The notes beneath the pieces are model-generated. The model was not told where the DNA came from, did no database searches, and saw only the letters and a program-made list of their open reading frames with translations. From Chromera velia (taxonomy: Eukaryota), in NCBI GenBank assembly GCA_018398765.1, contig JAHBMJ010000266.1:1-64000 (forward strand): a stretch of DNA of 64,000 bases, given 5' to 3'. Position 1 is the first letter of the stretch; each line of letters starts with the position of its first letter. The position numbers and the translations under genes are program-made. Positions 980-44,963 of this stretch are shown here, one piece after another.

Positions 980-1215
980 GAAATAATATGGGTTAATCTG
1001 GATAACTATCAGACACACGGACTCTTATATGTAAGGTCCTTACGACTGCTAAGAGACTGACATTACGACAAGGTACAACGATCCTTCTGTGTCTTGCAGA
1101 TATCTGTATCATATGATTGATAATACAGATCCTATGAGGATGACGTCAGATTCAGTCACCCCTGGCACCCCTGACATCTCCATTCTGAGACTGGCATGAA
1201 TCTAACTCACAACTC
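980..1215 (-). repeat. 3' LTR of element A
   Basis: Matches 6343-6503 plus 17747-17821 with 12 substitutions, 11 of them transitions. Confidence 0.9.
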
Positions 1216-1246
1216 ACCCCCTCATGACAGGCAAACAATCCACACT

Positions 1247-2981
1247 TCAATCATAGATCGATTGACCAAAAACAATAGGCTTGGTGAGTGCATTGGCTAC
1301 CTGAATCTCATAAGGAATCCAAACAACGCTGGCAGACAATTGCTTGTATTTCTGAATGCACCAGTCGAGAATATGCTGCATCCCCATATCTGAATCTGCC
1401 ACCCCCGATCTGAACTGATCATGGCAAAGGGTTACAGTCAATCAAGAACTGTACGGGCATGTCTTTCTAAAAATTCCGGCCAAAAGAAATCAGTCGAGGC
1501 ACACGCTTGAGGCACTGCTCAAACCTAACCAATTCTGAAGCTGTGGAGCTGCCCAGCTTGACGGTCGAACGCATCGAACGCCATGCGAAAATGTTGAACA
1601 ATTCATCTCCTGGCTTCCAGGCATGATCACAGAGAAGAGCAATCCATGTATGCCTTCCTTCGTATGTGTTTTTCTTATAAGAGGAATCAATGAAGAAAAC
1701 CATCTTAAGAAGAGGAGAGCGAGACAGACGGCAGAAATTCAGACCTTCTGGATCTTTTTTAATTTCGTGCAGGATTCTGACAGCAATCGCGAGATGCCTG
1801 TGGGTCAGTGTCTTCCCATAGCAAGAAAGAACATCGTACCACACACGACGGAAAGGAGAGAGACGTCCTCCCCAACCCAGACACCCGATCACACTGCTGT
1901 AGATGTCTTTCAGAGACAGATCTGGTTGCTCACCTTCCTGCAGATGAAAATCCTTTTGTTTGCATGAACACGTGCCCTCCACTCCTCTCCGAGGGATCTC
2001 ATATTCTCTGAACAGTTTGTCTGTGTCCACCCCCTCAAGATACGAGGACATTGAGACTCTGCACTCCCCTTTATCTTCTTCAAAGTCCATTCCCGCATAC
2101 TTGAATTTGTATGAAGCTATGTCAAGCCTTGTCATTTTCCCAAACTCCATCTCCCCCTGCAGATGTCGCATCACCCTCTCAACCTGCCCAAAAGCAATCA
2201 GGCCAAAACCGTCATCGATCCAATTGATGAGAACATTCTTCTCTTTATCAACTGCAATCCCCAACTCTATTTTCTCAAACCCTGCCCGCCCCGTTGTCCC
2301 AACCCACTTGTTGTCACAAAGTTTAGACGAGACAGGCATACCATAGAGACCGCGAATGACCTCCCGGATCTGTCTAGGCAAGAGAGATCTGGCGTACTCT
2401 TTCACTCTCTCCCACTTCTCGGGCTTCATGTCTGGATAGGGGTACATATCTAGGATCGGAAGCATCCATGCAGGCATGCGCGCGTAGACTCTCTCTGCAT
2501 TCATGTCAGTAGACTGAAGGAACGCCCCCTTCACATCCCCCACAAAAATCTGTAAAACATAAGCGAGTGCCCAGATTATGCAGAAAAAGATCAGAGCAGG
2601 GACAGGGGTACCTGTGAAGGTATCGATCTTTCTCTTATCCCAGAAGCCCTTCCCGAAGCATTGGGCTTTTGGCACTCTCTTTGTCGCTATAGGGGGAGAG
2701 TGACTGGAAGACGGACTTCCGTTCTTTCCTTCCTTCTCCTTTCCTTTCTCTGCCTCCTTCTCCTTCCATGTGAGCCTCCAGCCAAGATCCATCACCATCT
2801 TGGCCTTTTCCCTCGGAACCGCCCTCCCAAACACCTCCTGCCCGCAGATGTTCTGGAGCCACTCATCTCTTATCGCCTCATTAAACTTCCCATCCCTCAC
2901 CTCTTTCTCCTTTGCTGGAATGTTGGTGGAGCTTTTCTTGAAATCAAAGGCTGCTAGCGCCTCCAATGATTCCAAATGCAC
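1247..2981 (-). pseudogene. pol: Copia-type reverse transcriptase and RNase H, disrupted
   Basis: Motifs GDVKGAFLQ, RGLYGMPVS, WIDD, FFIDSSY and terminal QVANALTK (canonical Q-x-AD-x-LTK). Stop and frame change near 1467. Confidence 0.88.
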
Positions 2982-3799
2982 TGACCCTTGTTCTGCCCCT
3001 CCCTCGTGCTAAGGATTTCTGAGGAGGTCGGAACAAAACAAGGAGTCATCAGGAGGAATGCCATCTGGGTGAGGGGCTGCGGGTGCATCCCCACCCGCGT
3101 CTGGCGGCACCCCTTCATTCATAACACCCTGCTGCTGTGCGGACAGACCGACACCAATCAGAGGGGGGCCTGGGAAGACTTGGGATTCGATCTCGGTAGG
3201 CAGACGGTTGTCTACGAAATCGAAATAACGCAGTACTTGCTGTTTCCGAATGGGATTGGGCACTATAATTCCCTCTGCACACCACTTTCCACTCCCATCC
3301 CCCACTGGCTAGAGCCATGCTGCAGGGATAGACTTGTGATACGCTTTCCCTGTCTGCATCATCTTAAGATGCCTGCCATTCGCTTCCACAAGCAAACCTG
3401 TATACTTCCTTTGGCTGTCTCCCGGAGGGCCCGCTCCCTGCTGTGGAACCTCTGCCTAGACTTCCACCCCCAGATCCTGGTCGTCGCCTCCTGCGCTTGC
3501 TGCACCCCCCCGTCCTCTTAAGCAGCGGTTGCCCCCTCCTGAATCGCACCGATCTGCGGAAGAGCCCCACCACCTTGTGGATAGGCGGCGGGAAGGTTCT
3601 GACCAGAAACCTGCAGAGCAGAGGGCAAAAGCACATTTTCACCCCCAAACACAAGCCTTCCCTTCACAGGGGTCTCCAGGATTCTCTTCACCATACGCCA
3701 CCCCGCAAGTGAACCATCGTGCAAGGGCTCCATGAGGAAAGGGTGTGTGTTGAGAGCCTGAATGCGGTGTTTCTGTGCGCTGTAGTACAAGAGTGCTGC

Positions 3800-5200
3800 G
3801 ATACGGGGGGACCAAATGTAGAGAAACATACAAAGCTTACCTGAGAGGGAAAGGTCCTTAGGACCATGATGAATCACAACCCAATCCCCTAACGCAAACT
3901 TGCGATCTGGTTTCTCCCCGGTCCTCCACTCATATGCACTCTTTCTATCAGTGGGATGGACAATCTTATCTCCTTCTATGGCTACTGCTATACTGATTTC
4001 GTGTATAAGACTATGGGGAATTCGCTCTCCCTATCTCTCCCCCTCACTCGGAACCAAACACCTGTCCAGAACCACCCTGACCTGATTCCAATGAGTGCGG
4101 ATAGGTCTCTCAGTGAACCCCAAAATCCTTTTGATTCCAGTTGGGGCCCTTTCTAGGAGGATGGGTAGGCTGAACGACCTGCAAGTTTCGATGAACTTAC
4201 CCCCAATCAACTTGGGGGCCCTGTCTGTGAGGATCTTCTTAGGAACGATACCGTAGTAATCGATCCAATCCATCAAGGAATCTGTAGCATCACGGCGGCT
4301 ACGCATCGGAGTGTTGAACTTGCTACAGGTGTGGAGATCTGTCCAAAGATTCCCATACGGGAACCCACTGACCTCTGTATCTTTATCCCCAGGAAACCAC
4401 ATGTCCAAATACACCTCATCCCCGAATTCCTTCACCTTGCTTCTCCGGCTCTTCTCCCAAGTCGCTGCCGTCAACAACTTGTTGACTGCTTGCTTCTGCT
4501 GGCAAGTCCAGCAAGTGGCAGTAATCTCTACTGCCATGGCTGCTGTGATAGACTTTCCGTCCTCCTCGAGGGTAAGACGGAAATATTCAGCCTCCGAGTG
4601 GATTCCGAGACGATCGTGCTCGACTCTTGCCTCCTCTATGTCTAAACAACGCAGCTTACACTGCATACACAGAGCTTGCCTACCACCACCCCACTCACGG
4701 TCAAACTCTGCTTCCCTTTTCTTCGTATTGACAGGGAGAGGAAAGGAAGGGATACGAGAGCAGCAGTGGCCATTCGGTGCATCAACGTACAGTGATGCGA
4801 TGTATAATGCCACGAATGTCTCGCATATCAAAGTACGACGGCGTCTCGCCCGACCTATCAAACGCTGTGCAGGCATCATACGTGACCAACGTGGGAACAT
4901 TGTCATCTGTGAGGTAGAGATACGTGTGGAACAGCCTACCCGTCTCGTCCTCCAGAATCACGGTGCCGATCCCATCGACATTGATCCAAACGCGCTCGGA
5001 CGTTTGGTGGCCATCGCTGTCGCACTTTGCAACGCCGACGTGCGCGGAGTACGGCTGTTTCCGAACCAGAACTCTCTAGAGAACTCTAGCTCTCTGCAAC
5101 CTCCCACGATTCCCCATTCCCCTCTCGGTACCCGTATCTACCATGGCCTGTCTGACATCATGCTGACAGTTCGTATACTGATATATGACACAGTTTGATG
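3800..5200 (-). pseudogene. pol: Aspartic protease and integrase of element A, disrupted
   Basis: AMVDTGTE at ~5124-5147. HDRLGIH...CWTC zinc finger and VYLDMW / ILTDRAP core motifs in ORF 4031-4906. Boundaries approximate. Confidence 0.8.
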
Positions 5201-5279
5201 ATTACTGGAAATTAAACGCTGTATAAGGAGAAGGGCGGAAGTTGAGCACATCATACTCTCCGATGACGAACTCACCCGG

Positions 5280-6300
5280 GTTACCCGGATCTCCTCGAAT
5301 GTGGTTGACTGCTTGAATGCTTGGATGGGGCGGTATTCTTCTCTGTCATATACTTGCTGCACCTACAGGTTGGCTTCTAGTGGCCCAGACGACCACAGCA
5401 CTTGCACTGATTCCCCTCTTTGAGTGATTCACATGTACTGGGGTTCTTGCAGTTGCTCCGACCAGAATGCTAACACTTCTTTTCGGAATTTGAGATGGGT
5501 TTGCCTTTCGGCTGAGACAAGTTGTTTGACTTCTTTGGGGGACGGGCATTGTTGGGTTTTTCTTTGCATGGGAGTCCCATCCCACCTCCAACAAACAGCG
5601 CAATCTCTTCTTTGACAACGGCCCGTATGTCCCCCTGCTTCTTGAGTGCAAGCCCCCCCTTCCGCGGGGCAGACTCATCTCCGTGTACTGTTTTGCACAT
5701 CTCAGTGAGTTTCTGAATGAGTACGTCTAGATCCTTCAGCTGTGCGGATGTGAAAGTTGCCGACCAGACATCCTGCGTCAACTGAGACAGGGATCTGAGT
5801 ACAGCATCGGCCCTCTTCCTCATAGAAACTTCCCCTTTGAGACTATCAGTACGGGTTACCAGGTTTCCATACTGATTAATCACCTCAGTCCCGGTTGATC
5901 TGCTCAATGCGGGGAAAGTCTCCCACTCTCTTTCTACCTCATCGCGTTTCTTTTCATCGTTGTCCTCCCCTGATGACTTGAGGGCATCAATAAAGGCCTT
6001 TTTGTACTTATTGTACTCGGTACTCCCATTGGCATCGTCATAGTTACCCGCTTTCCTCTTTTGAAATACGTTATCTATGACCACCCCTACCCTGGGGTGT
6101 CCTTTTGTTGACTGATAGAGCTGGTCGCATGTCCAACGATCCAGCTTCACCCCGTCAAGGTCTACTTTTCCGTCCAAAATCGAAAGAAAGGAGTCGTAAA
6201 ACCTCGAAAAGGTATTGACCTCATTGACCGCCAAGTCTTTATCGGGTTTGTCGACAAAGAGAGGGAAGACGAGCTTCCCGTCCGTTGCGAACATTTGCAT
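5280..6300 (-). pseudogene. gag: Gag of element A with CCHC zinc knuckle
   Basis: ORF 5470-6300 continues in frame past TAG into CKCCGRLGH*KPTC (CX2CX4HX4C). Confidence 0.8.
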
Positions 6301-7419
6301 AGCCTACTCCAAACCTCCTTTACGCTCGCTGGCGTCGTACCAGAAATAATATGGGTTAATCTGGATGACTATCAGACACACAGACTCTCATATGTAAGGT
6401 CCTTACAACTGCTAAGAGACTAACATTACGACAAGGTACAACGATCCTTTTGTGTCTTGCAGGTATTTGTATCATATGATTGATAATACAGATCCTATGA
6501 GGAATCACTCCTGCCATGCGGTCAATGGGGGGGTACCCCATTGAAGCCGACGACGACGAGGGCTTTTTGCCAATCAATCCCCCCCTCCTTTCCGACGACG
6601 ACGGATGGAGCTTCAATAAACCTCCCCCCCCATTTAGCCCCTCTCCATTGACTCTCACTGCCGCCCTACAACGTCTTCTTCTGGCAGGCAGTGCATGAGC
6701 ATGAGAGCGGATGACCTGCAGCCACTGACCATGCAACTGGCCACGGTCAACGGAAACCTGAGGAAAGCGAGAAGGCGATCGAAGTTTGTAGTCAAGTAAA
6801 AGAGACATGCCGTCTCTAGCCGTCTCCTGCAAAGTTCGCGAAGCAAGCCAGACAAACACTCCCAGAACTTTATCTTACGATGTACTCTGGCATATCTTTG
6901 ATAGGTGTCTATTCAGGAGTATCTGTAGGTGGCCGTATTACGCATGTACATAGGGCCATTTTCACCTACCTCCATGCCCCTTGCTTCTTCCTGTTTCGCT
7001 CTTCTGTCTTCTGTCCATGAAAGATGGAGCTCGGGCTCGGGCTCAGAAAGAGGAGATCAGCAATGTGACCACCCGGTATGTGAAGCATCAATTCGACAGA
7101 GCTTCGCCCGGCTCGCTGGCACAATGGGTGGGTTTCCTTGTTCCCTTCCTTCCTTCCTTGCTTCCTTCGAAATTGTTCCCTTATTCCTTCCATCCTTCTT
7201 TCTCTCTTTTTTCCTCTCTCTGTGCCCCACGCTCTTGGCCCTGTGTTGGTGTGTGTCTATGTTCCTCTCGCTCCGCATGTGTATGTGTGTATGTACATGT
7301 GTATGTGTATCCCACCCCCCGATGATGACAGTGGTGTGCCTACCACTATCGGAGGGGGGCATATAGACATGTAGGCACTCAGGGAGTCCGACGCACCACC
7401 GAAGGAATACAGGCCAGTG

Positions 7420-7551
7420 AGTCATTCAGTCAGCCAGCCAGCCAGTCAGTCAGTCAGTCATACAACCAGTCAGTGAGTCAGTCAGTCAGTCAGAAAGTCA
7501 GTCAGTCAGTCAGTCAGACAACCAGTCAGTGAGTCAGTCAGTCAGTCAGTT
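7420..7551. repeat. (CAGT)n microsatellite, continuing at 13739-13910 and 14083-14300
   Basis: Direct inspection. Confidence 0.95.
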
Positions 7552-8067
7552 TGTAAGCAGAATACGGGGCTAGAACTCTCAATGCTAACGATGTGCATTC
7601 AGAGTTCATAGACTATAAGAGTTTGACCTAGAGAGGTTTGTAAATTGTTCCTTCGATCAAGCCAGTCCAACGATCGTTAGCGATCGTTAGCTAATTCGAA
7701 TGCATGCAGATCGATGTCACTTTATTTAGTCCTGCACCAAGCCACACTTATTGAAGTCCGCGCGCGCATTGCCGTGGCGCCGCCGGCCTCGCGGCTCCGC
7801 CACTCCGCGGGTCCGTCGCGTACTCGCCGCTCGTAGCCTGCCTACACCTGCCCGCTGCTTTGAAACCGACGTCCACGCTCGGTTCCAGTGACTGCACACA
7901 TCCATAACTAATCGACCTCGTGGCATTGATTAATAACATGCACCTGCACACTTTATCGAACCATAAATAAACGAAGTAAGTCGGAATGCAGAGTCCGACC
8001 CCCATACTGCCACCCTCCCTGCATCTATGCATGATGCAGGATAGAATTGCTTTCTGCCTCGAATCAC

Positions 8068-11000
8068 TTACCAGGGAATTTCATCTTCCCAAAACTCATA
8101 CACATGCATGCCACTCCACAAACCTCTTAGTTCTGCCCATACTGATTTCACCTCTCTACTTCTTAATTGCCACCTACACCTGCCCGTTGCTTGCTTCTCT
8201 TTCTCCTGCTGTCTCTTCTTTTCTTTGAAGGCATGCAATGCCTCCTTTGCATGTGTCAGGTTGACAGCAGGCTCCCATAATGCATTTTCTTTACTTTCTC
8301 CTTCCCACCACACCAGGTAGTGCGCCTGTTTGTTTATCTTTCTATGGTTAAGAATCTCTTTTACTTCATACTCAATCTCTTCTGATGTAGGTAACCGAAC
8401 AGCAGGCAGAGGATCATCCTTCCTTCTCTCATACTTCTTCAGGTATGATACATTAATCACATTGTGACCCTTCATTCCTGCAGGGAATATGAGCTTATAC
8501 GCGTTGCTCCCTACGTTTCTCTCTACCTCGAATGGTCCATAAAATACAGGCTCAAGCTTCCCGCTTGGCTTTCTGCTTCCCCTAAAATATGCATTGCGTA
8601 CAAGCAAAAAATCCCCTGGAGCAAATAAAACCTCTTGTCTGTATGGATCTACTTGTCGAGCTGCTCGTTCTCTTACTTGCTCAAGTCTCTCCTTTGCTCT
8701 CATGATTTCTGCCTCTCTACAATCTGCAAAGTCTGCTGCTGGCGGACAGAATGACTTAGAACGCACAGAGACAGAAGGCAGGCGAATCGGGTCACGTCCG
8801 TACAGAAAGCGAAAAGGAGACATGCCTGTGGCTGGATGCACCGAATCACGATACGCAAACTGACAAGAACACAACCACTTCGGCCAGTCCGTTTGATGCT
8901 CGTTCACAAAACAACGCAACATCTGTTCGATGGTCTGGTTGTCTCTTTCTGTCTGTCCATCTAACTGTGGGTGTCCTCTTGTGCTCATATTCAATTTTGT
9001 GCCCCACAGCCGAGCGAGTTCCTTCCAAAATGCAGAGAGAAAACAAGGATCACGGTCACTGACCACTGATTGGGGCATCCCATGCTCGCAGACAATCCTC
9101 TCAAAGACCACTTCGGCTGTCCCTTCTGCTGTAATCTCTTGTGAGACTGCAGCAAAGAAAGGAGTTTTGGAGAAGCGATCAACCACAGAGAGGATTCCAT
9201 CTACCTCTTCTCCTTTAAACACCACCCTCGGGAGTCCAAATACAAAATCAAGAGAAATAGACTGAAAAGAAAATTCAGGAATAAACAGAGGTTGGAGCAA
9301 TCCATACTGCTTCTCAGTCGGCTTCTTTGCTCTTTGACAGGCATCACACTTTCTGACATACTGAACAACCGATGCATACATATGTGGCCAATAGAAACTC
9401 CCTGCCAGTTTTAAATATGTTTTCTCTGCCCCCAAATGCCCCCCTACAGCCGTATCATGATGTTCATATATCAGGTTTCTTTGTAGTCTCTCTGTCGGGA
9501 CGGCCAGTCTGTCATTGAAATAGAGCAGTCCGTCTTCTATTTGAAACCTCGGAAGAATTAGCCGCAAATGTCGAGGACCAGGCACCTCTTTCTCAGGGTC
9601 TTTGTCAGGGTCTTCAATTTGGAGCCTTGCTTCAAGCACTTCCTTCACCTCCGTCCAGAATTTCTCTTCTTCATATCCTTTCCTTATCCTTTCCAGTAAC
9701 TCCTCATCTGGCTGCACTCTTGATTCCATTTACGACAATTGACACACTTCTTTTCTTTCTTTATCTTTTTCTTCTTTCTCAGCGTTCACTCCAGGGCACC
9801 TGCTCAACGCATCTGCCACACGATTCCGAGTACCAGGCACGTACCTTGGAGTGATGCCGATCTCGTCGAACATGCTGACAAATCTGCGCATACGTGGAGA
9901 CATTAAGGTGCGGTCAGCGGACATATTCACATATTTAAGAGACTCATGATCTGACCACACCTTAGTTGTGTGACTAACATACGGCCTCCATGATTTGACC
10001 GCAAATACGCAGGAAAGAAATTCTTTATCTCTGATCGGATACTTGAGCTCTGCCTGTGTCATTCTATGTGATGCGAATGCACACGGACGGAGCCAGCCGA
10101 TCTTAAGATCTTCCTGCATGAGCGCGGCAGCAAGCGTTTCTGTCGATTCGCATGCATCCACAAAAATTTTGAAGGGACGCGCAGGGTCAGGAATGTAGAG
10201 TTCGACAGTATTTTTTACTGCTTGCTTTACTGCTTCAAAGCTTTCTTCCTCTTTCTTCCCCCACTCAAACGATTTGTTTCCCTTTAACAATGCATACAAA
10301 GGGCCTGCTTTCTCACTGAAGTGAGGGACAAACCGTCTCACCCAATTTGCAAACCCTAAAAACGAAAGCACTTCATTTCTGTTCTTAGGAGTAGGCCACT
10401 TATTGACTTAGTCTATCTTACTCTACTCGGGCCGCACTCCGGTCCTGGAGATCTTCAGCCTGAGAAATGTCACCTCAGTTTGCATGAAATGGCATTTCGA
10501 CAATTTTGCATACAATTTATTTTCACTCAACAAACGCAAAACAATTCTGATGTGTCTCTTGTGCTCTTCTCTTGTACGTGAATAAATCAGAATGTCATCC
10601 AGAAAAACCGAAACAAAACGGTCAAGACAAGAGCGAAGAGCAAATTGAATCAACCTCATCGCTGCAGTAGGCGTGTTTGTCAACCCAAAAGAAACAACCA
10701 GCCACTCAAAAGAACCATAGCGTGTAGTGAAAGCTGTTTTGGGGATGTCTTCTTCTCTGACCCTCATTTAATGATAATACTGTCTGAGGTCCAGTGTCGT
10801 GAAGAACCGGGCCCCATGCAATCGATCAATCAACTCTTGCGGGTGAGGGAGGGAATGCTTGTCTTTGATAGTAATGCGATTCAAGCCAGTGTAGTCACAA
10901 CACATTCTCATCGAGCCATCTTTCTTTTATACAAAAAGAACAGGCGCAGCATAAGGAGAAGCAGACAGTCGGATGAATCCTTGTTCAAGGTATATATCTA

Positions 11001-13371: not shown

Positions 13372-13417
13372 GACAGCAACAGAATTCAGACTGAATACAA
13401 ACGAATCAAAAGCCTGT

Positions 13418-13440
13418 TCGAAACCTGGCTCTGGTAACCA
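13418..13440 (-). promoter_or_regulatory. Primer binding site, initiator tRNA-Met-like
   Basis: The + strand reads TCGAAACCTGGCTCTGGTAACCA, resembling the 3' end of eukaryotic tRNA-iMet (TCGAAACCTGGCTCTGATACCA type). It lies 3 nt from the 5' LTR. Confidence 0.8.
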
Positions 13441-31254: not shown

Positions 31255-31360
31255 CCTGGTGACTGTGGGTTAGAGATTGATGTGAGCAACCAGGGCTTCT
31301 CCCCCTGGCTTAGTTGGGGCTGACAGAGGTGCCCGACTCTGCCCTTTCAAGGCAGGCGCA

Positions 31361-34300: not shown

Positions 34301-35200
34301 TTTTGCTGAAAACAACTGTAGGAGACCTCTTTTTCTTGCCTTCTAATAGCTCACTAAGGGCCGTGTGTCGGGTGATTAGCAACGTATGGTCTGATGAGAT
34401 AATTTTTTTTTCTGTCGTACTGCAGGGTATGCAACGAGTGGCTGTACAAAACAAACACCTGATCTTTTAGTGTCGGTCAGGCGGGAATCCTCTTCCTCTT
34501 GAAGGGTCCCAGTATTCTGTATGCTGAATGACTGGCCTGCAGTTGTGTGAGCCGTCACTTACAAGGAGAGTGCTGCGGGGAGAGTATATGATAATATTTG
34601 GGCCAGGCTGGTTCGGTATGTTTCTGCTCAGGTCTGATGCATCGGAGGGGCGTGAATGGGAAGGAAGACGGCGGCTGGGCGGTCGATCGGTTTAGGCTTT
34701 GGGCGGAAGGTACAGCTCAGTGGGTAGTAATGGTGTGTTTGCCAGTGCGAAACGACGGAGTGGATTGGCTACGGGTGTGGGGCAGTAGAGGGAGGTGTTC
34801 TCTTTTCTGGAGTCTTCTGAATGAAAACTTCTCTGCTGTTCACGCGCGATTCTAGTTTATAGGTTTTGTCCTAAGGAGAGTGGTAAGAGAGGTGGTCAGA
34901 TGTTTCGTGTACGACGGTGCTGGGAGGAATCTTCAGATAGAGGGCTACGGGGTCTCCTGTATGGTGATCGAGGGGCAGAATTGTTGTTTAAATTTCAGAG
35001 TCTTCAGGGTGAACAGACGGACCGTACTGGTCTTGACTGTGACTCTGGGCCTCTTTGGTAACTGGAACCAACTGTGAGGAGTCACTTACGGAGAGTGACT
35101 GCAATGAGCGTTGTCCCCACACAAATGTAGCTTCAAGGTCCTCTTGAGTCGGGTACGGTACCCTTTGATACAGGAAATACGGAGGTTGGGAGTCCGACAT
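31361..35200 (-). pseudogene. gag: Very long Gag (~1280 codons) of element C with about 20 in-frame stops
   Basis: Track ORFs starting at 34988, 34376, 34109, 33617, 32810, 32573, 32348 and 31670 all share one frame. Capsid-like region at ~32100-32700 and zinc knuckles at ~31820-31930. Confidence 0.8.
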
Positions 35201-36516
35201 TTTGGCAACGGGGTCGTTGACCCAGCAACTGACAGCGGAAGGTTTTTTCAGTCTCGACTGAGATTGCTTCTGTGCGTCAAGGGAAAAGCGTTCCTTATCT
35301 CTCTGTCAGAGAACTAAGCAGTGCTTCGCGATTTCTTTTGATCACGAAGCAATTCTTGGCAGAGACAAGAAGAGATGCGTCTGTCTAAAAATTGGGCAGC
35401 GCTTCACGGTGCCCTCTGGTTTGGAAAGAATTCTTGGCAGAGACAAGAAGAGACATATCTGTCCTAAAAACGGACAGCACTCCGCGGTTTGCTCTATTGT
35501 CCTATAGGTTTTCCTTCAAGACAAGATTCGGTCTTCTTCAGCTCGAAGGTCTCCTTAGCGGAGGTGAAGGCTGAGATAAAGGCTATGGAGGGTACTAGAA
35601 GCTGGTGGAAAAGAGTGCCGACGTGGATGGAGATCGAAAAAGAGGGACTGCAGTTGCTTCCGTCTAGAAGAATTCTTCATAGAGACGTGAAAGACAGAAG
35701 GCTGCTTGTTGTTGAAATAGCAGGAGCTCTAAGCTGGCAAGTCACCACGTATAGCGGACTACTTGTCTGACTCCTTAGGCTAGAGATTTGTTCCTTGGTG
35801 GAGTTTAGCAAGCGAAAAGTCTGTTCAAGGTTCGAGTCACTGTGTAAAAATCTTAAAGTCCGGATGAAGGTTTCTCGTTCACTCTCTAGCTCTCTTTTGA
35901 TTCATTTTCTTAACACTTTTTGAACAGGTGGAAAACGCCGAAAGTCAACATTTGCTGTTTTAGAGAGCAATTTCTGGTTCAATCTTGACATACGTATTTA
36001 CATACATACATGTTGGTCTTTTGCGCGTGCGTTTTTCGTTCTGTATCTGACCTACAAGTTGGTATTTAAGGATGTGTGTCTTAAGGTATTTAATTTTCCC
36101 CATGTTTTTTCTGTTTTGTATTTGTTTTGCAGGCCTGTATTTACATACGTCTGTAAGTCCAAATCTTGCTGCACGACACCAAAAAATCCTTTTTTTTTCT
36201 TGACGTGGCCACTTTGTTTTCAGACATGCAGAATATGTGTAAGTTCGGGAGAATATATGTACATACGTCTCTAAATACATGCAACTTCTTGTTTGTCTCT
36301 AATGAACCAAGTTTACTTTTACTTCCAAACATGTATGATAGTATAAAATATTAATCCTGGTGTAAAAGTGTTCTTAATATTTCTTAACGTGATATATAAG
36401 TGTGGCTTGGTATGTACGTTCGTATGTGGCTTGGTATGTAGGTTGGTATATATGTGTCAGTCTATCTACCTTATATGTTTCATTGCAATACTTACCTTAA
36501 TTATTTCCTTTCTTTC

Positions 36517-36568
<52 letters not shown>

Positions 36569-37240
36569 CTTAAAGCCTCTTAAAAATTATATGCCATTTC
36601 TTCTTTTCTTTTTTCTATTCTAGTTTCTTCTCATTTATTGTCATTGCAAATTAGTCAACGCTAATTAATTATTTCAAATTTAATTATTTATGCTTCCCTG
36701 ATATTACAAATTATTGATGTAGGAGACCGTAACACAGGTGCCCCCCGTGGTCTACTCTAGTATCTACTAGACAGTGCCTAGAATTAGGCCTAGAAAAGGT
36801 TTAATTTAATATATAAAAAGACGTTTAGAGCTGGACGTTCATGTACAAAAAGTATAAAAACTTTGATTTTTTAAATAAAAAAACTGAAATACATCGATTT
36901 ACACTAGGATTTACATGCATTCTTTCTTTGTTTTTTTTTTCTTTCAGCTGCCTGCAACACTTGCCGCAGTGTGCAAATATGTGCAATACCCATGCAACAC
37001 GGGAAAAAAAAAAGATTTAAAAATTGTATACATTGAGTTATATACAGCTAGCTCTAAAGCTAGCTGTGGATATAGATATAACAATGGCGCGTCATAGTCA
37101 TACTATGACTCATACATACATATACACATTTTTTAAATGCCGCAGTGAGTTTTTCTTTCTATGACTGGAAGTGCATGTTTGCCAGCAAATGGCAGCAGTT
37201 CTTGAAATCAGGAATGTCAAACATCTCAGAGTGCAGCCAT

Positions 37241-38884
37241 TTAGGAAGCCATGCACTCTGCCGTTACTGTCGGGTCGCAAGAAGCCTTTCCAACGTTGCA
37301 CGGCGGTGCGTCGCTATTCACACGCGTGCTGTTTTCAAAGACAGTCTCGAGCACGGTCGGCAGGCCTGACTGAGTATTGTCAGCCGAGGAGAGGCTGCTG
37401 AGTCCGCACGTCTGGAGCTGTGCCTGGTCACTGCAAAAGGCATTCAGCACCAGACCTTGTCCGAGGCTGTCAAGCGACCCGAGCATTCCGTTGTTGAAAA
37501 TCCCCAACTGTCCTATGTAGTTTGTCACAAGGGCCTGACTGAAAATAATCTCCGTCAGGTGCGCATTGCCCGAAATGGTGGTAGGGATTCGACAGTTGTT
37601 TGGGTCATCATCGAACGCCACGACTGCACTGAGGTCCACGCTCTTGAGTCCCTCAACGTTTTGAATTCTCAGAAAATTGTAAAATTGGGCAGTTTGCAGG
37701 ATTGTGTTGATGGTTTCTGTGGGATTCTTTAGGCTGAGGAGATTGATGAACTGGAGGTTGACATTCTGTGTGGGTTGGGAAAACGCAAAAGTTGACGGAA
37801 TCTGAACAAGTTCCAAGATCGGCATGTCAGTAAATCGAAACGACGGAGACGGCCCATCAACGGATTCGAGTTTGGGCAGCAGAATTTGTTTGCCAGACGG
37901 GTGAGTGAACAGCAATCTCCCTGCAGAACGGAGAGAAGGCAAGTTCAAACACTCTAGACCCTCCACGTTGGGGTTGGTGGCCAGTCCACCAATGCGTTCA
38001 AGCAGAGGTGCATAGAATTTGCGGAATCGCGCAGGACCATCAAAGCGTATGCCCCCTAATATCACCTGCAGTTTGGGGAGCCAAACAAGATCCAGAAAGA
38101 CGGCGCTGTTCCAGGCCACCCCGCTGTCGCCTACCCACTCCAAATTGGGCAAAACAATCGTTCGCAATCGGGATGCCTCGCTGGAAATGAAGAAAAAATT
38201 CGCCGATCTGAGGTTGCAGAACGCGGGGGGAACGATGGTCTCGAGGGACTGGAGGGTCAGTCCGACGATATCGCCAGCTGTGACTAGGCCGCTAAAGCCT
38301 TCTAATGTCTTTACGTTCAGAACGGCCCGAGAGGACGCCAAGATCGTTCCGGTAATTTCCCGAAGAGACGAGAAGGCCTCGACAAGGTCGGCATCGTTCA
38401 GAGAAGCGCACCCGGCAACGGAGTCGAATCCACGGCGTGCATCGGCTGCAATGCTAATAACGATGGTGCCTTCGAATCTACAGACACCCTTGAAGGCGTC
38501 TTTAAGCCGTGCAGGGTCGCACGACTGGAAGATGCTCTGTGGGGGGAGGCCCAGGCGGGTAAACAGCGCTTCTGCTGTGAGGGTGTTCTCAGCTGTGCAG
38601 GGAGGGGGCGGTGGGGGGCACTTCGCAAATTCTTTCGGATTGTAGACGGGAATCTCACAAGCGTCTTTGCTCTTTTTCAGAATGTCTTTCCGATCCTTCA
38701 GAATATCCTCTTTCGTTTCAAGGTTGTCAGAGAAGAGCTCTGAAAGGTCGAGTTTCGTCAACTCAGGCACGCCGCCTTTGAACGTGTCAGCCAACTTTCC
38801 CCCAAAGTCCGCGAGGTCCAGTTTTCCGACGGCGGGACTCACGAGGAGGAAGGAGGCAATCAAGGAGCAGCTCAAGCCACGCAT
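37241..38884 (-). CDS. Secreted receptor-L-domain (leucine-rich solenoid) protein, paralog 1
   Basis: Intact single-exon 547-aa ORF with a signal peptide. Repeats FSSLREITG, LPNLEWVG, LPKLQVILG, LPSLRSAG, LPKLESVDG and Cys-rich caps. No TM or GPI tail evident. Confidence 0.85.
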   Translation of the reverse strand: MRGLSCSLIASFLLVSPAVGKLDLADFGGKLADTFKGGVPELTKLDLSELFSDNLETKEDILKDRKDILKKSKDACEIPVYNPKEFAKCPPPPPPCTAENTLTAEALFTRLGLPPQSIFQSCDPARLKDAFKGVCRFEGTIVISIAADARRGFDSVAGCASLNDADLVEAFSSLREITGTILASSRAVLNVKTLEGFSGLVTAGDIVGLTLQSLETIVPPAFCNLRSANFFFISSEASRLRTIVLPNLEWVGDSGVAWNSAVFLDLVWLPKLQVILGGIRFDGPARFRKFYAPLLERIGGLATNPNVEGLECLNLPSLRSAGRLLFTHPSGKQILLPKLESVDGPSPSFRFTDMPILELVQIPSTFAFSQPTQNVNLQFINLLSLKNPTETINTILQTAQFYNFLRIQNVEGLKSVDLSAVVAFDDDPNNCRIPTTISGNAHLTEIIFSQALVTNYIGQLGIFNNGMLGSLDSLGQGLVLNAFCSDQAQLQTCGLSSLSSADNTQSGLPTVLETVFENSTRVNSDAPPCNVGKASCDPTVTAECMAS

Positions 38885-39987
38885 TGCGACGACGTTCGAT
38901 CAGACGTGTCTCAAGGCCGGGCAACGCAGTGCTTCACTGCCGAAAGCAATTAACGGTTCGTCCGAACTTCGTCGACAGAAGCTGAGTTTGCGCGGGAACC
39001 TTCGATCCTCACTTGCTTTCAAATCGTCTCAAAAAGGCTGGGAGGTCAACTCAGTTTTGATGTATGTCAATTCAATTGGGTGTCGTACAGCACGTCATTG
39101 TGACGTCAACACTGCACGTCTATATACATATATATATATAATTCGCAGCATAAATTTCAAGCAAACGACTGACCTTCGCGCGTACGCGTGCATGCGAAGA
39201 CAAATTTTCATGCATGCATGCGAAGACAAATTTCATGCATGCATGAAAATTTGTCTTCGCATGCACGCGTACGCGCGAAGGTCAGTCGTTTGCTTGAAAT
39301 TTATGCTGCGAATTATATATATATATATGTATAGACGTGCAGTGTTGACGTCACAATGACGTGCTGTATGACACCCAATTGAGTTGGCATACATCAAAAC
39401 TGAGTTGACCTCCCAGCCTTTTTGAGACGATTTGAAAGCAAGTGAGGATCGAAGGTTCCCGCGCAAACTCAGCTTCTGTCGACGAAGTTCGGACGAACCG
39501 TTAATTGCTTTCGGCAGTGAAGCACTGCGTTGCCCGGCCTTGAGACACGTCTGATCGAACGTCATCGCAATGCGTGGTTTGAGCTGCTCCTTGATTGCCT
39601 TCTTCCTCCTCGTGAGTCCCGCCGTCGGAAAACTGGACCTCGCGGACTTTGGGGAGAAGTTGGCTGACACGTTCAAAGGCGGCGTGCCTGAGTTGGCGAA
39701 ACTCGACCTTTCAGAGCTCTTCTCTGACAAGCTTGAAACGAAAGAGGATATTCTGAAGGATCGGAAAGACATTCTGAAAAAGAGCAAAGACGCTTGTGAG
39801 ATTCCCGTCTACAATCCGAAAGAATTTGCGAAGTGCCCCCCACCAACCCCTCCCTGCACAGCTGAGAACACCCTCACCGTAGAAGCGCTCCTGACCCGTC
39901 TAGGCCTCCCCCCACAGAACGCTTTCCGGTCGTGCGACCCTGCACGGCTTAAAGACGCCTTCCAGGGCGTGTGCAGGTTTGAAGGCT
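38467..39987. repeat. Large palindrome with axis 39227 and 13-nt spacer (39221-39233)
   Basis: Arms are near-identical through the 685-bp intergenic region and the first ~103 codons, then decay to about codon 139. ATGs at 38884 and 39570 are exactly symmetric. Confidence 0.95.
38885..39569. promoter_or_regulatory. Symmetric bidirectional promoter region
   Basis: Lies between divergent ATGs. CATGCATGCATG x2 at the axis, TGACGTCA at 39101 and 39346, CGCGTACGCG x2 and (TA)n x2. Confidence 0.65.
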
Positions 39988-41216
39988 CCATCATCCTTAA
40001 CGACGCCCAAACACCCGAAAGGGGCTTTGATTCCCCTCAGGGTTGCGTTTCTCTGAACGATGCTGACCTGGTTGAAGCTTTCTCCTCGCTCAGAGAGCTA
40101 ACAGGAGGCTTGCAGGTATTCAGTGATCTGATCAGAAATGTGAAGACGTTTGAGGGCTTTAGCGGTCTCGTTTCAGTAGAGGGTCAGATTCTGATTAATT
40201 CGAGGACTTTAGAGTCCTTGGTCCCTCCTGCGTTCTGTAATCTCGAGTCTGTTTCGGTCCTGAGGATCACACAGAATGCCTTTAATCTCAAGAAGGTCGC
40301 GATGCCCAGTTTGAAAAGCGTTAGGGCTAGTGGCGGTCTCGAAATTGAGGCATCTGGGGATACTGGCATTGAGTTCGTATGGTTCCCAAATTTGGTCAAT
40401 GTAGAGGGTGATGTGAGCTTGGACGGCCCCGGCCCGCTCGGGTCTTTCTTTGCCCCCGCCCTTGAAAGGGTCGCCGGCTCCTTCTCAGTCGATGCAGAAA
40501 TTGACGGGCTCGAATGTTTGAACCTGCCAGGTTTGAGGTTTGCGGGCAGATTCGGCTACAACTACCCTTTTGGGAAGGCACTCCTCCTGCCGAACCTCAA
40601 GTCTGTCGAGACAGTTTTCTCTCTTCAAGAGGTAACTAGTCTTGAGAGGTTTGAACTCTCCGACAGGTTTGACGTGTCTGCACAGACAGATGTGGTCATA
40701 GTGGTGCGAGATTGGCCGAGCTCAAAAGACCAGACCAAATCCGTGAGACATCTCACGCGCACCCTCACTGTGGGCAGCCCCCTCTTCTTTAACGTCCTTG
40801 GTATTTCTACTTTGGACCTCAGCAGCCTGGTCCAAATCAGCACTGAGGAATGCGACGAGCGGCTGCGAATTGCCCGGATGCCCGACCTGGAGACGATTAT
40901 TTGGAATCCTGCGTTGAAGGACAACTTCGCAGCCTGGATCGAAATTTTCGATATCCCCAAACTCGACACCCTGGATGGCCTCGGTGATGGTTTAACCACA
41001 GATCCCAATTGCAACAGTACTGTGAACGTGCGTGACCATGCAACCATGGTTTCCTGCGGTCTGACCAGTCTGAGCTCTGTGGACCAAACACAGTCTGGCC
41101 TCCCAACTGAGCTGGAGAATCTTCCCCTCCCCATATTCAGCAACCTGGCCCCTCTCTGCAACGTTGGCACAGCTTCATGCGACCCACTTGTCACACAAGC
41201 TTGCAAGCCCTCGTAG
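39570..41216 (+). CDS. Secreted receptor-L-domain (leucine-rich solenoid) protein, paralog 2
   Basis: Intact 548-aa ORF, colinear with paralog 1, with the same signal peptide and Cys framework. Confidence 0.85.
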   Translation: MRGLSCSLIAFFLLVSPAVGKLDLADFGEKLADTFKGGVPELAKLDLSELFSDKLETKEDILKDRKDILKKSKDACEIPVYNPKEFAKCPPPTPPCTAENTLTVEALLTRLGLPPQNAFRSCDPARLKDAFQGVCRFEGSIILNDAQTPERGFDSPQGCVSLNDADLVEAFSSLRELTGGLQVFSDLIRNVKTFEGFSGLVSVEGQILINSRTLESLVPPAFCNLESVSVLRITQNAFNLKKVAMPSLKSVRASGGLEIEASGDTGIEFVWFPNLVNVEGDVSLDGPGPLGSFFAPALERVAGSFSVDAEIDGLECLNLPGLRFAGRFGYNYPFGKALLLPNLKSVETVFSLQEVTSLERFELSDRFDVSAQTDVVIVVRDWPSSKDQTKSVRHLTRTLTVGSPLFFNVLGISTLDLSSLVQISTEECDERLRIARMPDLETIIWNPALKDNFAAWIEIFDIPKLDTLDGLGDGLTTDPNCNSTVNVRDHATMVSCGLTSLSSVDQTQSGLPTELENLPLPIFSNLAPLCNVGTASCDPLVTQACKPS

Positions 41217-41863
41217 TAGTCTCGTTATACCTCACAGACCCATTAAATGGGACTCTCCTCAGGACAGATGAATTGTATATGTTTTGACATGCCGTTTGTA
41301 ATCGTTTAAACTAGCGTTTAAACACCAGCTAGCGCAAAGATCATTCGAAGTTTATAAATTTTCTAATATTTTTTTTCTTTTTTTAATAAATGAAATCATT
41401 TTGGTTGTTTTACCTAGTGTTTAACTATTTTCTTTCATACAAAAAAAAAATCCGAGTCATGTTTCATGTTTTAATATATGCATGATATCAATCACTTTCA
41501 GACAGTAGTATAACAAATACTTTTAACACTAGATTCTAGAGTAAATTGAAAAATTCCCTTGAGGTTATGATAAAATAATATAAATAAACTACATTAAATT
41601 TATTTTTTATCTCCTTACTCTGCTGTGACTCTCTTGCTCTTTTGATGCAGGCTGATCCTGCTTTAAGGATCTGACTTCGGTAGAAAGAGGGCAAGGCCTC
41701 GCGTTCTATGTGAGGATGTAAGACTACTCTGCCCTACCGTGGGAATTCAGTGAGTGGCCATCATGGGAAAGCCGTTCTTGCCTTTGTTATCTTCCTTCAT
41801 GGGAGAGGGTTACCTTAGTATTGCGTCTAGCTGCGTATCGAACCAGCCGAACGCTGAACGCTC

Positions 41864-44800
41864 TGCAGAGTCGTACCCGTGTGCTTCGGGCTGAGGGCCG
41901 GCCATCCCGTGCCACGAAGCCGGGATTGGACGCATAGCCCAAGAACCCCGGCAGCTAGACAGAGAAAGAGAGGCCCTCTACAGAAAAGAAAGAATAGAAA
42001 GAGCCGGGGCCTTTTGAGAGGCGGTCCTAGAAGGCAGTTGTGACCTGACTCGAAAGTTGTAGAGATGATGGAGACGGCCAAATATGTTATTGAATCACCC
42101 CTTGCATCGTTACCGTTCAGGAGATATGAGCCATTAAAGATTCAGGAAAAGGATATCCCAAAAGGCAGAATTGCACCTAGCCCCGCAAAGTCATTCCGTG
42201 AAAGCGATAAAGACATTCTGCTTTCCCGGACCAAACATGCCCAACTTTGCGAGGCCCTGAGACATGCACGCTACTCATCACCGGTCAATCGAATTTATAT
42301 GCATGCACGCGCGAAGACATCTTAAGATTCATCTCTAAGTCGAAACGTTGCACAGCCAGGATCAAACTAGTCTGAACATACACATCCGTTTATTAGAATC
42401 CAAAGCCTTCAGAACTCCTTCTACGAATCTTAAGTGCTTTCTATCACATTTTTAAGGTTCTCTAGCTCAGTCCTGCCGATTCCAAACCAGAATTAGCAAG
42501 TGCTGACGCCAGCAAGAGTCGAGAACACGAGCGCCACTCATATGAACCTTCAGCCTGAGGAGCTCAGTCCTTCTGAAACGTTCTTTTTTCATCATAGCCA
42601 TACAGCCAAAGTGAAGCAGGAGAGTATCAACAGCTTTTCTGACTCTTAGAATTCTCTCTCTTGAAGTTTTTGGCCCGAACAAGATCATGGTTGTCAACAC
42701 CCGTCGCACAGAGTATAACCAAAACCAGAACCTATCGACACATTTGTGCATAGACAATATAAGATCTCAGCTATTGGAAGAGACTTTCAATTTCCTAGAA
42801 TCTCCATTACAGAACCCGAAAGACCCCAAACCCAAGAAGGCCCTGACCAAGAAGCAACTCACGTAGAAGGCCAGACAGGAACAGAAACGCCTGGCAGAGA
42901 CTCGCCGAAAACAGAAACAATAAAAAGAGGAGGATACCACGGTCGCGAAGCAGCTCGCTGCCGATGAGGCCATGGGGGTTGAAGAGACTACCGCCCTCTC
43001 TGGAGGAGTCACCGAGAAGACCACCTCCTCGGAGGATAAGTCAACAGCAGCGCACTGCCAGCAGAGAGGCACAGCTGATACACTCTGTCGTTGCACTGCT
43101 GAAGATCTCGCGTATCTCTTCCCTCCCTCCCCCCCGTATGTCTATGTCTGAGACTTCCCTCTTTCTCTCTTTGCTGCAGGCGGTGGTCTCTATGCGGGTG
43201 ACGGACTCCACGCATACTTTGATCCCGAGACCAGGGAGACCGTCTACCTCAGTGTTGCAAAGAACGGCAAGGCTGTCCTTCCACGCCCTGCATAATAGCG
43301 CCAGTCGCTGACAACACGCACGGCACCGTCTCTCACTGCCAACAACACCAAAGACGAGAACGATGAGGATAAGCCGATGCCACCTCCGCCCGAGGCCGTC
43401 ACCTAGTCCCACAAGATCCCCAAGCCGCCCACCAACAACGCCCTACAAGAGGTCGACCACACGTCGGAGCCTGCACCAAAGAGAGGCCAGATAGACAACG
43501 TCGGCACTACTAAGCTCAACCTCCCCAACCCCACTATGAAGGCTGACATACTCACCTTTTCAGGGGAGCACAGCAAGGTGAACGAGTTCTGGCTATCGTT
43601 CAAGGCCGACTGCATCGCGCACAAGTGGGATCTGAACCTCATGGTCTACTACTTCAGGAAAGCCATGAGGGGCACAGCCCTCACATGGTGGACCTCAGAG
43701 ATGGAAGAGAAGGTCGAGATGCTCAAGACTATCAAGAACCTCCATGCATGCTTTGAGGCTCAGTTCGGCATCACCGAGGCCGAGAAGGATGCGGCAGAAG
43801 ACCTTCTGGACAACCTTGTTTAAGACGCTCCCGCGGGGGAGACTATCTATGTATATGCAAAACGCGTGGCGGCCCTGTGTCGACAGGCACGGGTGCGCAG
43901 GAACGACCCCAAAATCCTCAAGAAATTCAAGAAGAGCATTTTTAATGAGACCGTCCGCACCATCCTCACCACGAAAACCTACTCCTCCCTCGATGAGATC
44001 GTTAAGGAAGCAGAGAAGCTTGCCCATGCTAACTCCCCCAACAGCTCCAGCGCCGTCGCCGCTGGTGCTTTCACTCTCGCCCTCCTGTCAATGCTTTGTC
44101 CCTCCTGTCCGGCCACCTTATAGCGTCCAGACAGAAGGTAAAGCGAGGACAAGAACCTTAGGAAGATCTAGAGAAGGAACGTGTGTAACACTAACTTAAG
44201 CAACACTTTACAGGAGGTTTGGCTCCATATCAGTTTAAGCACTAGTGCGATCTGATATTCCAATCAGCTGCGTTCATTCTATCATGCATGGTTTCTCAGA
44301 CTCTTGATCGGGGGGGATCTGTAGAGTCGTACCTGCGCGCTTTGGGCCGAGGGCTGGCTATCCCGTGCTACAAGGCCGGGATTGGACGCATGGCCCAAGA
44401 ACCCCGGCAGCTAGACAGAGAGAGAGAGGCCCTCTACAGAAAAGAAAGAATAGAAAGAATAGAAAGAGCCAGAGCCTTTTGAGAGGCGGTCCCGGAAGGT
44501 AGTTATGACCCGATTCGAAAGTTGTGGAGATGATGGAGACGGCCAAATATGTTATTGAATCACCCCTTGCATCGTTACCGTTCAGGAGATATGAGCCATT
44601 AAAGATTCAGGAAAAGGATATCCTAAAAGACAGAATTGCACCTAGCCCCGTAAAGTCATTCCGTGAAAGCGATAAAGACATTCTGCTTTCCCGGACCAAA
44701 CATGCCCAACTTTGCGGGGCCCTGAGACATGTACGCTACTTATCACCGGTCAATCGAATTTACATGTATGCACGCGCGAAGACATCTTAAGATTCATCTC

Positions 44801-44963
44801 TAAGTTGAAACGTTGCGCAGCCAGGATCGAACTAGTCTGAACATACACATCCGTCTATTAGAATCCAAAGCCTTCAGAACTCCTTCTACAAACCTCAAGT
44901 GCTTTCTATTACGTTTTTAAGGTTCCCTAGCTCAGTCCTGCCGATTCTAAACCGGAATGAGCA
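41864..44963 (+). mobile_element. Non-autonomous gag-only LTR retrotransposon (element D)
   Basis: TG...CA LTRs at 41864-42498 and 44320-44963, perfect 4-bp TSD GCTC, PBS-like TGCTGACGCCAGCAAG, G-run PPT before the 3' LTR, no pol. Confidence 0.92.
42687..44123 (+). pseudogene. gag: Gag of element D, one frame with about 7 premature stops
   Basis: ATG 42687 is in frame with ORFs 43536 and 43866. ILTFSGE...FW...ALTWW...FEAQFG aligns with the element C capsid region (LLSFDGN...F*...AKQWY...FLARYG). Confidence 0.82.

What the first reader, a model, noticed from the sequence alone, without database searches (positions are those of the whole stretch)
980..44963. Transposon-restricted C>T / G>A hypermutation (RIP-like or methylation-driven) in an apparently non-fungal eukaryote
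Seen: element B gag-pol keeps one frame for 5.3 kb but has 7 stops, all TAA/TAG, including YYH*MRV where RTs have YHQ. Element C Gag has about 20 stops in 3.8 kb with no frameshift, and element D Gag has about 7. A local duplication reads PNLAQWWDPS versus PNLAQ*WDPS. Conserved Asp residues appear as Asn (YVND, SNQR, VANALTK). LTR pairs differ almost only by transitions: A 11/12 in mixed contexts, B 8/9 mostly CpG, C many CA>TA and TG>TA. The three host genes have no premature stops. Known: fungal RIP makes CpA>TpA changes in repeats, and model Apicomplexa are generally reported to carry only DNMT2-type enzymes. Inference: a repeat-targeted cytosine mutagenesis or dense methylation system acts here. 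The context is mixed, so it is not classic RIP.
Basis: partly seen in the sequence, partly recalled or inferred. Interest (0 to 1): 0.88.

Follow-up and report, generated by a model that had tools for sequence, protein, structure and literature searches.

The report
Alga erases transposons by C-to-T mutation
Jumping genes in this alga, identified by protein match as Chromera velia (a free-living relative of malaria parasites), differ between copies almost only by C/T swaps at CG and CA sites, likely the scar of a transposon-aimed cytosine-modifying defence so far described only in fungi and with no known enzyme in this species.

Summary
Real. Five transposon repeat pairs (four LTR pairs, one inverted-repeat pair) differ by 112 transitions and 8 transversions; per site CpG 22%, CpA 17%, CpC 5%, CpT 3%. 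Against other genomic copies, 36 of the 40 rows shown have T/A here and C/G elsewhere. Host controls are milder: old paralog silent sites run about 1:1, and a recent host inverted duplication is transition-rich (9-11:1) but lacks the CpG/CpA excess. The host is the chromerid Chromera velia, not a fungus. Changes hit both strands, without strand tracts or fungal-style CpA depletion. Best reading: transposon-targeted CpG+CpA cytosine methylation with deamination (0.5). Rivals: true RIP (0.2), general bias (0.15), deaminase or repair gap (0.12). The enzyme is unknown: one survey lists only four DNMT2 in Chromera; another assigns Vitrella a DNMT4. No report found for chromerids. The scan earlier noted similar signatures in two fungi only. 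A single-copy neutral control and 5mC data are missing.

The parts
979..6503 (-). Element A, Copia-like LTR retrotransposon (integrase before RT/RNase H), 162-bp LTR cores 979-1140 and 6342-6503, frameshifted
   Evidence: LTR pair 8 ts:0 tv; rve weak E 0.032; gene order from translation; multicopy and in RNA-guess runs
7552..13738 (-). Element B, Ty3/Gypsy chromovirus-type element, TG..CA LTRs of about 297 bp, single gag-pol frame 8068-13461 with 7 TAA/TAG stops; 5-bp target duplication CAGTT/CAGTC inside a (GTCA)n run
   Evidence: Pfam capsid, protease, RNase H, rve, SH3, Chromo; stops; LTR 8 ts:1 tv; ends; high summed depth, many copies
18332..36736 (-). Element C, large Ty3/Gypsy element, about 990-bp LTRs 18332-19326 and 35750-36736; gag 31313-33793, pol 27625-31311; extra DNA inside
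   Evidence: Pfam RVT_1, RT_RNaseH, rve, protease, gag; 11+12 stops; LTR 39 ts:5 tv, 23 at CpA
41862..44963 (+). Element D, non-autonomous LTR element with gag only (42687-44099), LTRs 41862-42498 and 44318-44963
   Evidence: Retrotrans_gag E 0.002; 7 stops; LTR 42 ts:1 tv
56891..58695 (.).
   Evidence: Self-BLAST; 15 ts:1 tv, 14 at CpG/CpA
37241..38884 (-). Control: host receptor-L-domain-family gene 1 (547 aa, open), left arm of an inverted duplication
39570..41216 (+). Control: host receptor-L-domain-family gene 2 (548 aa, open); identical over about 487 aa to a protein named Chromera velia; arms 38640-39222 and 39233-39815 are 98% identical
45766..50946 (+). Control: host TSP1 / LNR(Notch) / mucin secreted-protein gene with four internal modules; introns 46-48% GC
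   Evidence: Pfam; 4-fold sites 35 ts:46 tv; intron GC

Best explanation
Transposon copies in Chromera velia accumulate C:G to T:A changes at CpG and CpA on both strands after insertion, likely because a C5 cytosine methyltransferase aimed at silenced transposon chromatin marks these sites and the marked cytosines are then deaminated. Shown: the spectrum (112:8), the CpG/CpA preference (about 5 times CpC/CpT), the direction, action after insertion (twin LTRs and inverted repeats differ), action on both retro- and DNA-type elements, and sparing of a host duplication. Inferred: 5mC, targeting by chromatin state rather than by homology pairing, and the enzyme (a DNMT4-like protein as listed for Vitrella, or a DNA-active member of the four DNMT2-class genes listed for Chromera). 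The outcome is gradual inactivation: Gln/Arg/Trp codons become stops, Asp becomes Asn. It works like the Dim2-dependent 'mitotic RIP' of Zymoseptoria or methylation decay in plants, on top of a mild general transition bias of about 2:1.
For: 112 ts:8 tv in 5 pairs, 95% CI of ratio 6.9-33; LTRs alone 97:7, above the 5.16 called elevated in a methylated mangrove genome (p=0.007). Per-site CpG 44/198, CpA 49/282, CpC 9/169, CpT 10/297. Across genomic copies of A+B: 1057:195 and 1059:201 places in two DNA runs; 36 of the 40 rows shown are T/A here and C/G elsewhere, contexts CpG 14, CpA 13, CpT 6, CpC 3. RNA-guess contigs lean to C/G (270 of 426, 443 of 781) while DNA runs are even (531 of 1057), as expected if expressed copies are less eroded. 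Host 4-fold sites 20:21 or 22:31 with independent pairs, p<=2e-8 vs TEs. Recent host paralogs: 6 ts:4 tv non-synonymous events over 1046:2560 opportunities, i.e. about 1.8:1 neutral equivalent (my tally). Host inverted arm: 2 CpG and 0 CpA changes over 171 such sites, 2/9 vs 93/112, p=3e-4. Host introns stay 46-48% GC. Vitrella CEM15752 is classed DNMT4 in PMC10538959.
Against: No 5mC data. PMC12344493 Supplementary Table 1 lists for Chromera velia 0 DNMT1/3/4/5/6/orphan and 4 DNMT2, calls DNMT4/RID confined to fungi, and says species with only DNMT2/6 have undetectable 5mC; the same table gives 0 for Vitrella where PMC10538959 lists two, so it may miss genes. The recent host inverted duplication is also 11:1 (9:1 after dropping two microsatellite-shift columns), not different from TEs in ts:tv (p=0.59); n is small and the arms may be under selection or conversion. 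Among-copy ratio is 5.3-5.4, lower than in LTR pairs. Old 4-fold sites are a different time scale. TE bodies show no CpA depletion (substrate index 1.09-1.43, as in genes). The conserved-column test against distant homologs was inconclusive.
Confidence: 0.5

Rival explanations
1. True RIP-like defence: duplicated DNA is recognised by homology at one life-cycle stage and a RID/DNMT4-type enzyme converts C to T in bursts.
For: Near transition-only spectrum with strong CpA share, the RIP context; uneven load between twin LTRs of C, 27 vs 12, p=0.024; sister genus has a DNMT4-classed protein; the host inverted duplication is also transition-rich.
Against: The linked, 580-bp, 98% identical host duplication has no CpA change; recent host paralogs at 95-98% exist; no strand runs (65 runs vs 61.7 expected, p=0.80); no RIP-index signal in TE bodies, only 14 of 127 windows have product>substrate; the families are high-copy and appear in RNA-guess runs; no DNMT4 listed for Chromera.
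Confidence: 0.2
2. General genome-wide C:G to T:A mutation bias with CpG/CpA preference; transposons only show it because they evolve neutrally.
For: Recent host duplication 9-11:1; small host duplicate 3:1; host coding DNA is also CpG-poor in places (TSP exons o/e 0.39-0.50); no DNA-directed DNMT listed.
Against: 4-fold sites about 1:1 and unsaturated; CpG/CpA excess absent from the host duplication; introns 46-48% GC and a host spacer with CpG o/e 1.5 would not persist under such a one-way bias unless offset by GC-biased conversion (inference).
Confidence: 0.15
3. Methylation-free route: a DNA cytidine deaminase recruited to, or uracil repair excluded from, silent transposon chromatin.
For: Fits the spectrum and the reported lack of DNA-type DNMTs in Chromera.
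Against: 3'-neighbour preference (CpG/CpA) is typical of methyltransferases, APOBECs read the 5' neighbour (recalled); 5' context here is flat for CpA (0.16-0.21). Editing of cDNA during reverse transcription is excluded: twin LTRs differ, both strands are hit in each copy, and an inverted-repeat element is hit too.
Confidence: 0.12
4. Artefact or reassigned code: TAA/TAG read as Gln, or assembly error.
For: All 7 stops of B are TAA/TAG.
Against: Host genes end in TAA and TAG; C and D also carry TGA and stops at Trp positions; two DNA runs reproduce the transition-rich variation.
Confidence: 0.03

Closest known systems
Dim2-dependent mitotic C>T mutation of transposons in Zymoseptoria tritici (PMC8016269, passages read)
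   Same: Transposon-confined, >95% C>T, CpA involved, tied to a methyltransferase, no need for a sexual cycle.
   Different: There >98% of changes are at CpA and CpG is spared; here CpG is at least as mutable as CpA; host is an alveolate with no Dim2 listed.
RIP of Neurospora and other Ascomycota (RID/Masc1/DNMT4) (PMC12543289, PMC9246332, passages read)
   Same: C>T in repeats, CpA among the targets, stops in TE frames, intact host genes.
   Different: No CpA depletion or TpA gain in TE bodies, no strand tracts, a linked host duplication is spared, recent paralogs are tolerated, genome is TE-rich; premeiotic timing and RID untested.
Methylation-driven decay of LTR retrotransposons in plants (mangrove, bioRxiv 10.1101/263830, passages read)
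   Same: Elevated ts:tv between twin LTRs read as a footprint of 5mC deamination.
   Different: Ratio here 13.9 (CI 6.5-35) vs 5.16 (mangrove) and 0.85 (poplar); CpA-weighted; no MET1/CMT/DRM-type enzyme listed for Chromera.
DNMT4-classed proteins of diatoms and Vitrella (PMC10538959, PMC9998398; passages and supplement rows read)
   Same: A candidate enzyme class in the sister chromerid, function unknown.
   Different: Placement with RID is unstable between trees and rejected by PMC12344493; no Chromera orthologue could be tested here.

Membership tests
RIP (fungal) | Near-exclusive C:G to T:A transitions in repeats | tested here: met
   112:8; polarity 36 of 38
RIP (fungal) | Dinucleotide preference, CpA foremost | tested here: inconclusive
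   CpA 17% is 4-5 times CpC/CpT but not above CpG 22%
RIP (fungal) | Triggered by homology: any long, linked, near-identical duplication is hit | tested here: not met
   One host inverted duplication, 580 bp, 98%: 0 CpA and 2 CpG changes over 171 sites; single case, selection or conversion may mask it
RIP (fungal) | Compositional scar (TpA/ApT up, (CpA+TpG)/(ApC+GpT) down) in repeats | tested here: not met
   TE bodies product 0.57-1.06, substrate 1.09-1.43; only an AT-rich satellite and few windows lean positive
RIP (fungal) | RID/Masc1 (DNMT4) gene in the genome | not testable with these tools
   No genome held; literature: none listed for Chromera, one listed for Vitrella
RIP (fungal) | Premeiotic timing in a sexual cycle | not testable with these tools
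   needs crosses or staged sequencing
TE-targeted 5mC with deamination | Excess C>T at methylatable contexts in TEs over host DNA | tested here: met
   CpG/CpA share 93/112 vs 2/9 in host duplication; ts:tv 14 vs about 1-2
TE-targeted 5mC with deamination | 5mC present on the elements | not testable with these tools
   only assembled contigs offered
TE-targeted 5mC with deamination | DNA-directed C5 methyltransferase in the host | not testable with these tools
   published survey lists only 4 DNMT2
APOBEC-type editing of retroelement cDNA | One-strand G>A fixed before integration, retroelements only | tested here: not met
   both strands in each copy, twin LTRs differ, inverted-repeat element hit

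The most novel reading that the evidence does not exclude
Chromera velia runs an active transposon-mutating defence, a RIP analogue outside fungi, using an enzyme not recognised as a DNA methyltransferase (a DNA-active DNMT2 paralogue, an overlooked DNMT4-like protein, or a deaminase). It would be the first such system in an alveolate and a candidate relic of how the apicomplexan lineage shed its transposons.
Probability: 0.3. Interest if true: 0.92.

Novelty: new variant of a known kind. Interest (0 to 1): 0.7.

Why it matters
A 2022 review calls RIP the only known exploitation of cytosine mutagenesis and says it may have evolved outside fungi (PMC9246332). Here a culturable alga next to the Apicomplexa shows a RIP-strength, CpG+CpA-weighted C>T spectrum in its transposons although a 2025 survey lists no DNA-directed methyltransferase for it. 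Either the enzyme inventory is wrong, or a DNMT2/DNMT4-like enzyme or deaminase does the job. Both are directly testable with one nanopore run and a proteome search, and bear on the disputed DNA activity of DNMT2 in apicomplexans (recalled) and on LTR dating in this genome.

Tried and rejected
No whole genome is held, so copies could not be aligned genome-wide and no DNMT search was possible. A read-laying control on a host stretch could not be obtained, so the single-copy neutral spectrum stays open. Two metagenome scans (element A RT, host gene 1) found no relative. No run is on record as RNA; RNA labels are guesses, so expression is not claimed. Polarity from conserved protein columns against 27 distant integrase/RT homologs was inconclusive: B 2 C>T of 5 unambiguous, C 6 of 18 with 11 transversions from family divergence. 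RIP indices negative in TE bodies. Runs test for strand coordination negative. TAR=Gln code rejected. RT-coupled editing rejected. P0005 hoped to be another strain's allele but is a gene-2-like start on a gene-1 body. Literature blanks: Chromera+'repeat-induced point mutation' 0 papers; Chromera+DNMT+5mC 0; Chromera+methylation+nanopore 8, none on this by title/abstract start; none of the 25 listed of 47 holds 'Chromera'; PMC4501334 main text has no 'methylation' or 'point mutation'; PMC12695648 does not mention Chromera; PMC9998398 supplements 1-12 no Chromera/Vitrella, files 13-23 not searched; PMC4501334 supplements 13-16 not searched; bioRxiv supplements closed. Subscription journals are not covered.
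Full report
Observation. Self-comparison finds four LTR pairs and one pair of terminal inverted repeats. Pfam identifies B and C as Ty3/Gypsy elements, B with a chromodomain integrase, D as gag-only and A as a divergent element with integrase ahead of RT. B keeps one frame for 5.4 kb with 7 stops, all TAA/TAG; C has 11 stops in gag and 12 in pol, D has 7. The paired repeats differ by 112 transitions and 8 transversions (A 8:0, B 8:1, C 39:5, D 42:1, TIR 15:1). Per available site the transitions fall at CpG 44/198, CpA 49/282, CpC 9/169, CpT 10/297; CpA and CpG each exceed CpC+CpT (p=2e-9, 5e-12) and do not differ from each other.

Direction and other copies. Laying four public runs on elements A and B gave 1057:195 and 1059:201 transition:transversion places in the two DNA-guess runs. 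Of the 40 best-supported rows shown (1754 more were not shown), 36 have T/A in the window and C/G in the other copies, 2 are the reverse and 2 are transversions; contexts are CpG 14, CpA 13, CpT 6, CpC 3. RNA-guess contigs lean towards C/G (270 of 426; 443 of 781), DNA runs are even. The window's copies thus carry private C:G to T:A changes. Both strands are hit in each copy, without strand runs (p=0.80).

Host. Relatives of the gene at 37241-38884 with E<=3e-10 are three proteins named Chromera velia and one weaker choanoflagellate hit, and one of them is identical to the window's neighbouring gene over about 487 residues. The TSP1/LNR/mucin gene and DNA runs of about 200 million letters of contigs fit (193.6 Mb, about 30 Mb TEs in PMC4501334, passages and one section read). 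The fungal refutation fails.

Controls. Four-fold sites of the TSP modules give 35:46 over 196 comparisons (six non-independent pairs) and of the receptor-L pair, codons 96-200, 10:11; independent subsets give 20:21 or 22:31, p<=2e-8 against the TEs. Recent paralogs of gene 2 differ by 6 transition and 4 transversion amino-acid events plus 2 multi-base ones, about 1.8:1 after correcting for opportunity (my tally, tiny sample, transcript assemblies included). Against a purely TE-restricted effect, the near-identical inner arms of the host inverted duplication give 11:1, or 9:1 after dropping two columns that are one microsatellite shift. But only 2 of those 9 are at CpG and none at CpA although the arm holds 171 such sites (p=3e-4 vs TEs). 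Host introns are 46-48% GC. The simplest decomposition is a mild general transition bias plus a TE-specific CpG/CpA component about five times higher. A single-copy polymorphism control could not be obtained.

Mechanism. A reassigned code is excluded since host genes end in TAA/TAG and stops also sit at Trp positions. Editing of cDNA is excluded since twin LTRs differ, both strands are hit and an inverted-repeat element shares the pattern. Classic RIP fits the spectrum but fails two tests: no compositional scar and sparing of a linked host duplication. I therefore favour methyltransferase-marked cytosines in silenced TE chromatin that deaminate, as in Zymoseptoria, where Dim2 drives mitotic C>T in TEs, though there almost only at CpA (PMC8016269, passages). 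The LTR ratio of 13.9 (CI 6.5-35) is above the 5.16 that was called elevated in a methylated plant genome (bioRxiv 10.1101/263830, passages). Methylation and the enzyme are inferred, not shown.

The enzyme problem. PMC12344493 Supplementary Table 1 (rows read) lists for C. velia no DNMT1, 3, 4, 5, 6 or orphan and four DNMT2; its text (passages) confines DNMT4/RID to fungi and notes that DNMT2-only species lack detectable 5mC. PMC10538959 (passages and supplement rows) lists a DNMT4 (CEM15752) and a DNMT2 for the sister chromerid Vitrella, where the first table has zeros, and notes that this clade splits from canonical DNMT4 in one of two trees; Chromera was not in that panel. EC 2.1.1.37 is marked present in Chromera in PMC4501334 (supplement row), which DNMT2 alone could explain. 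PMC9998398 (passages) says the function of diatom DNMT4 is unknown. So either an enzyme was missed or the route is unusual; this is what keeps the interest high.

Novelty. Searches for Chromera with RIP, DNMT/5mC, nanopore methylation or DNMT4/RID found no report (listings only). A review states that RIP is the only known use of cytosine mutagenesis and may have evolved outside fungi (PMC9246332, passages); RIP-like defences are described as CpA-preferring and limited to few fungal clades (PMC12543289, passages). Earlier notes of this scan record similar signatures in two fungi only. Verdict: a real, strong, context-specific hypermutation of transposons in a chromerid; a new variant of methylation-linked TE mutagenesis, not a demonstrated member of RIP. 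Evidence is one window, five repeat pairs and two elements' worth of other copies.

Noticed in passing
window 9146-9845, 11456-11703, 11756-11966 (B); 3608-4080 (A): Contig joints with CT..AC ends (GT-AG on the coding strand): in RNA-guess runs inside B, two runs each; in DNA-guess runs inside A. Possibly spliced transcripts or spliced, re-copied derivatives of the retrotransposons.
   Followed up: no
window 37241-41216: Head-to-head receptor-L-domain gene pair whose inner 580-bp arms are 98% identical, with only 10 bp between them and a CpG-rich shared spacer; database protein P0005 joins a gene-2-like start to the gene-1 body, so conversion, inversion or an assembly chimera.
   Followed up: partly
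window 39570-43292: Database gene model P0033 fuses gene 2 to a stretch of element D's gag frame, likely a mis-annotation.
   Followed up: partly
window 7547-7551 and 13739-13743: Element B sits in a (GTCA)n microsatellite; its target duplication reads CAGTT vs CAGTC, itself a C/T difference.
   Followed up: yes
window 18332 and 35750: Both LTRs of C begin TA instead of TG; the LTR cores of A lack TG..CA ends.
   Followed up: no
window 21296-22717 (-): 473-aa open frame with no Pfam match inside element C, intact while gag and pol are riddled with stops; extra or nested gene.
   Followed up: no
window 15387-16930: AT-rich (27% GC) satellite, CpG o/e 0.32, the most RIP-index-positive long repeat of the window (product 1.36, substrate 0.83); may be an old, heavily eroded repeat.
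   Followed up: partly
window 58697-59550: 50-bp tandem array of about 17 units; 17 of 28 variant types are C>T, 7 of 8 CpG positions affected.
   Followed up: partly
P0002: The best relative of the TSP1/LNR gene's C-terminal part is filed under a house-dust-mite assembly; possibly an alveolate contaminant there.
   Followed up: no
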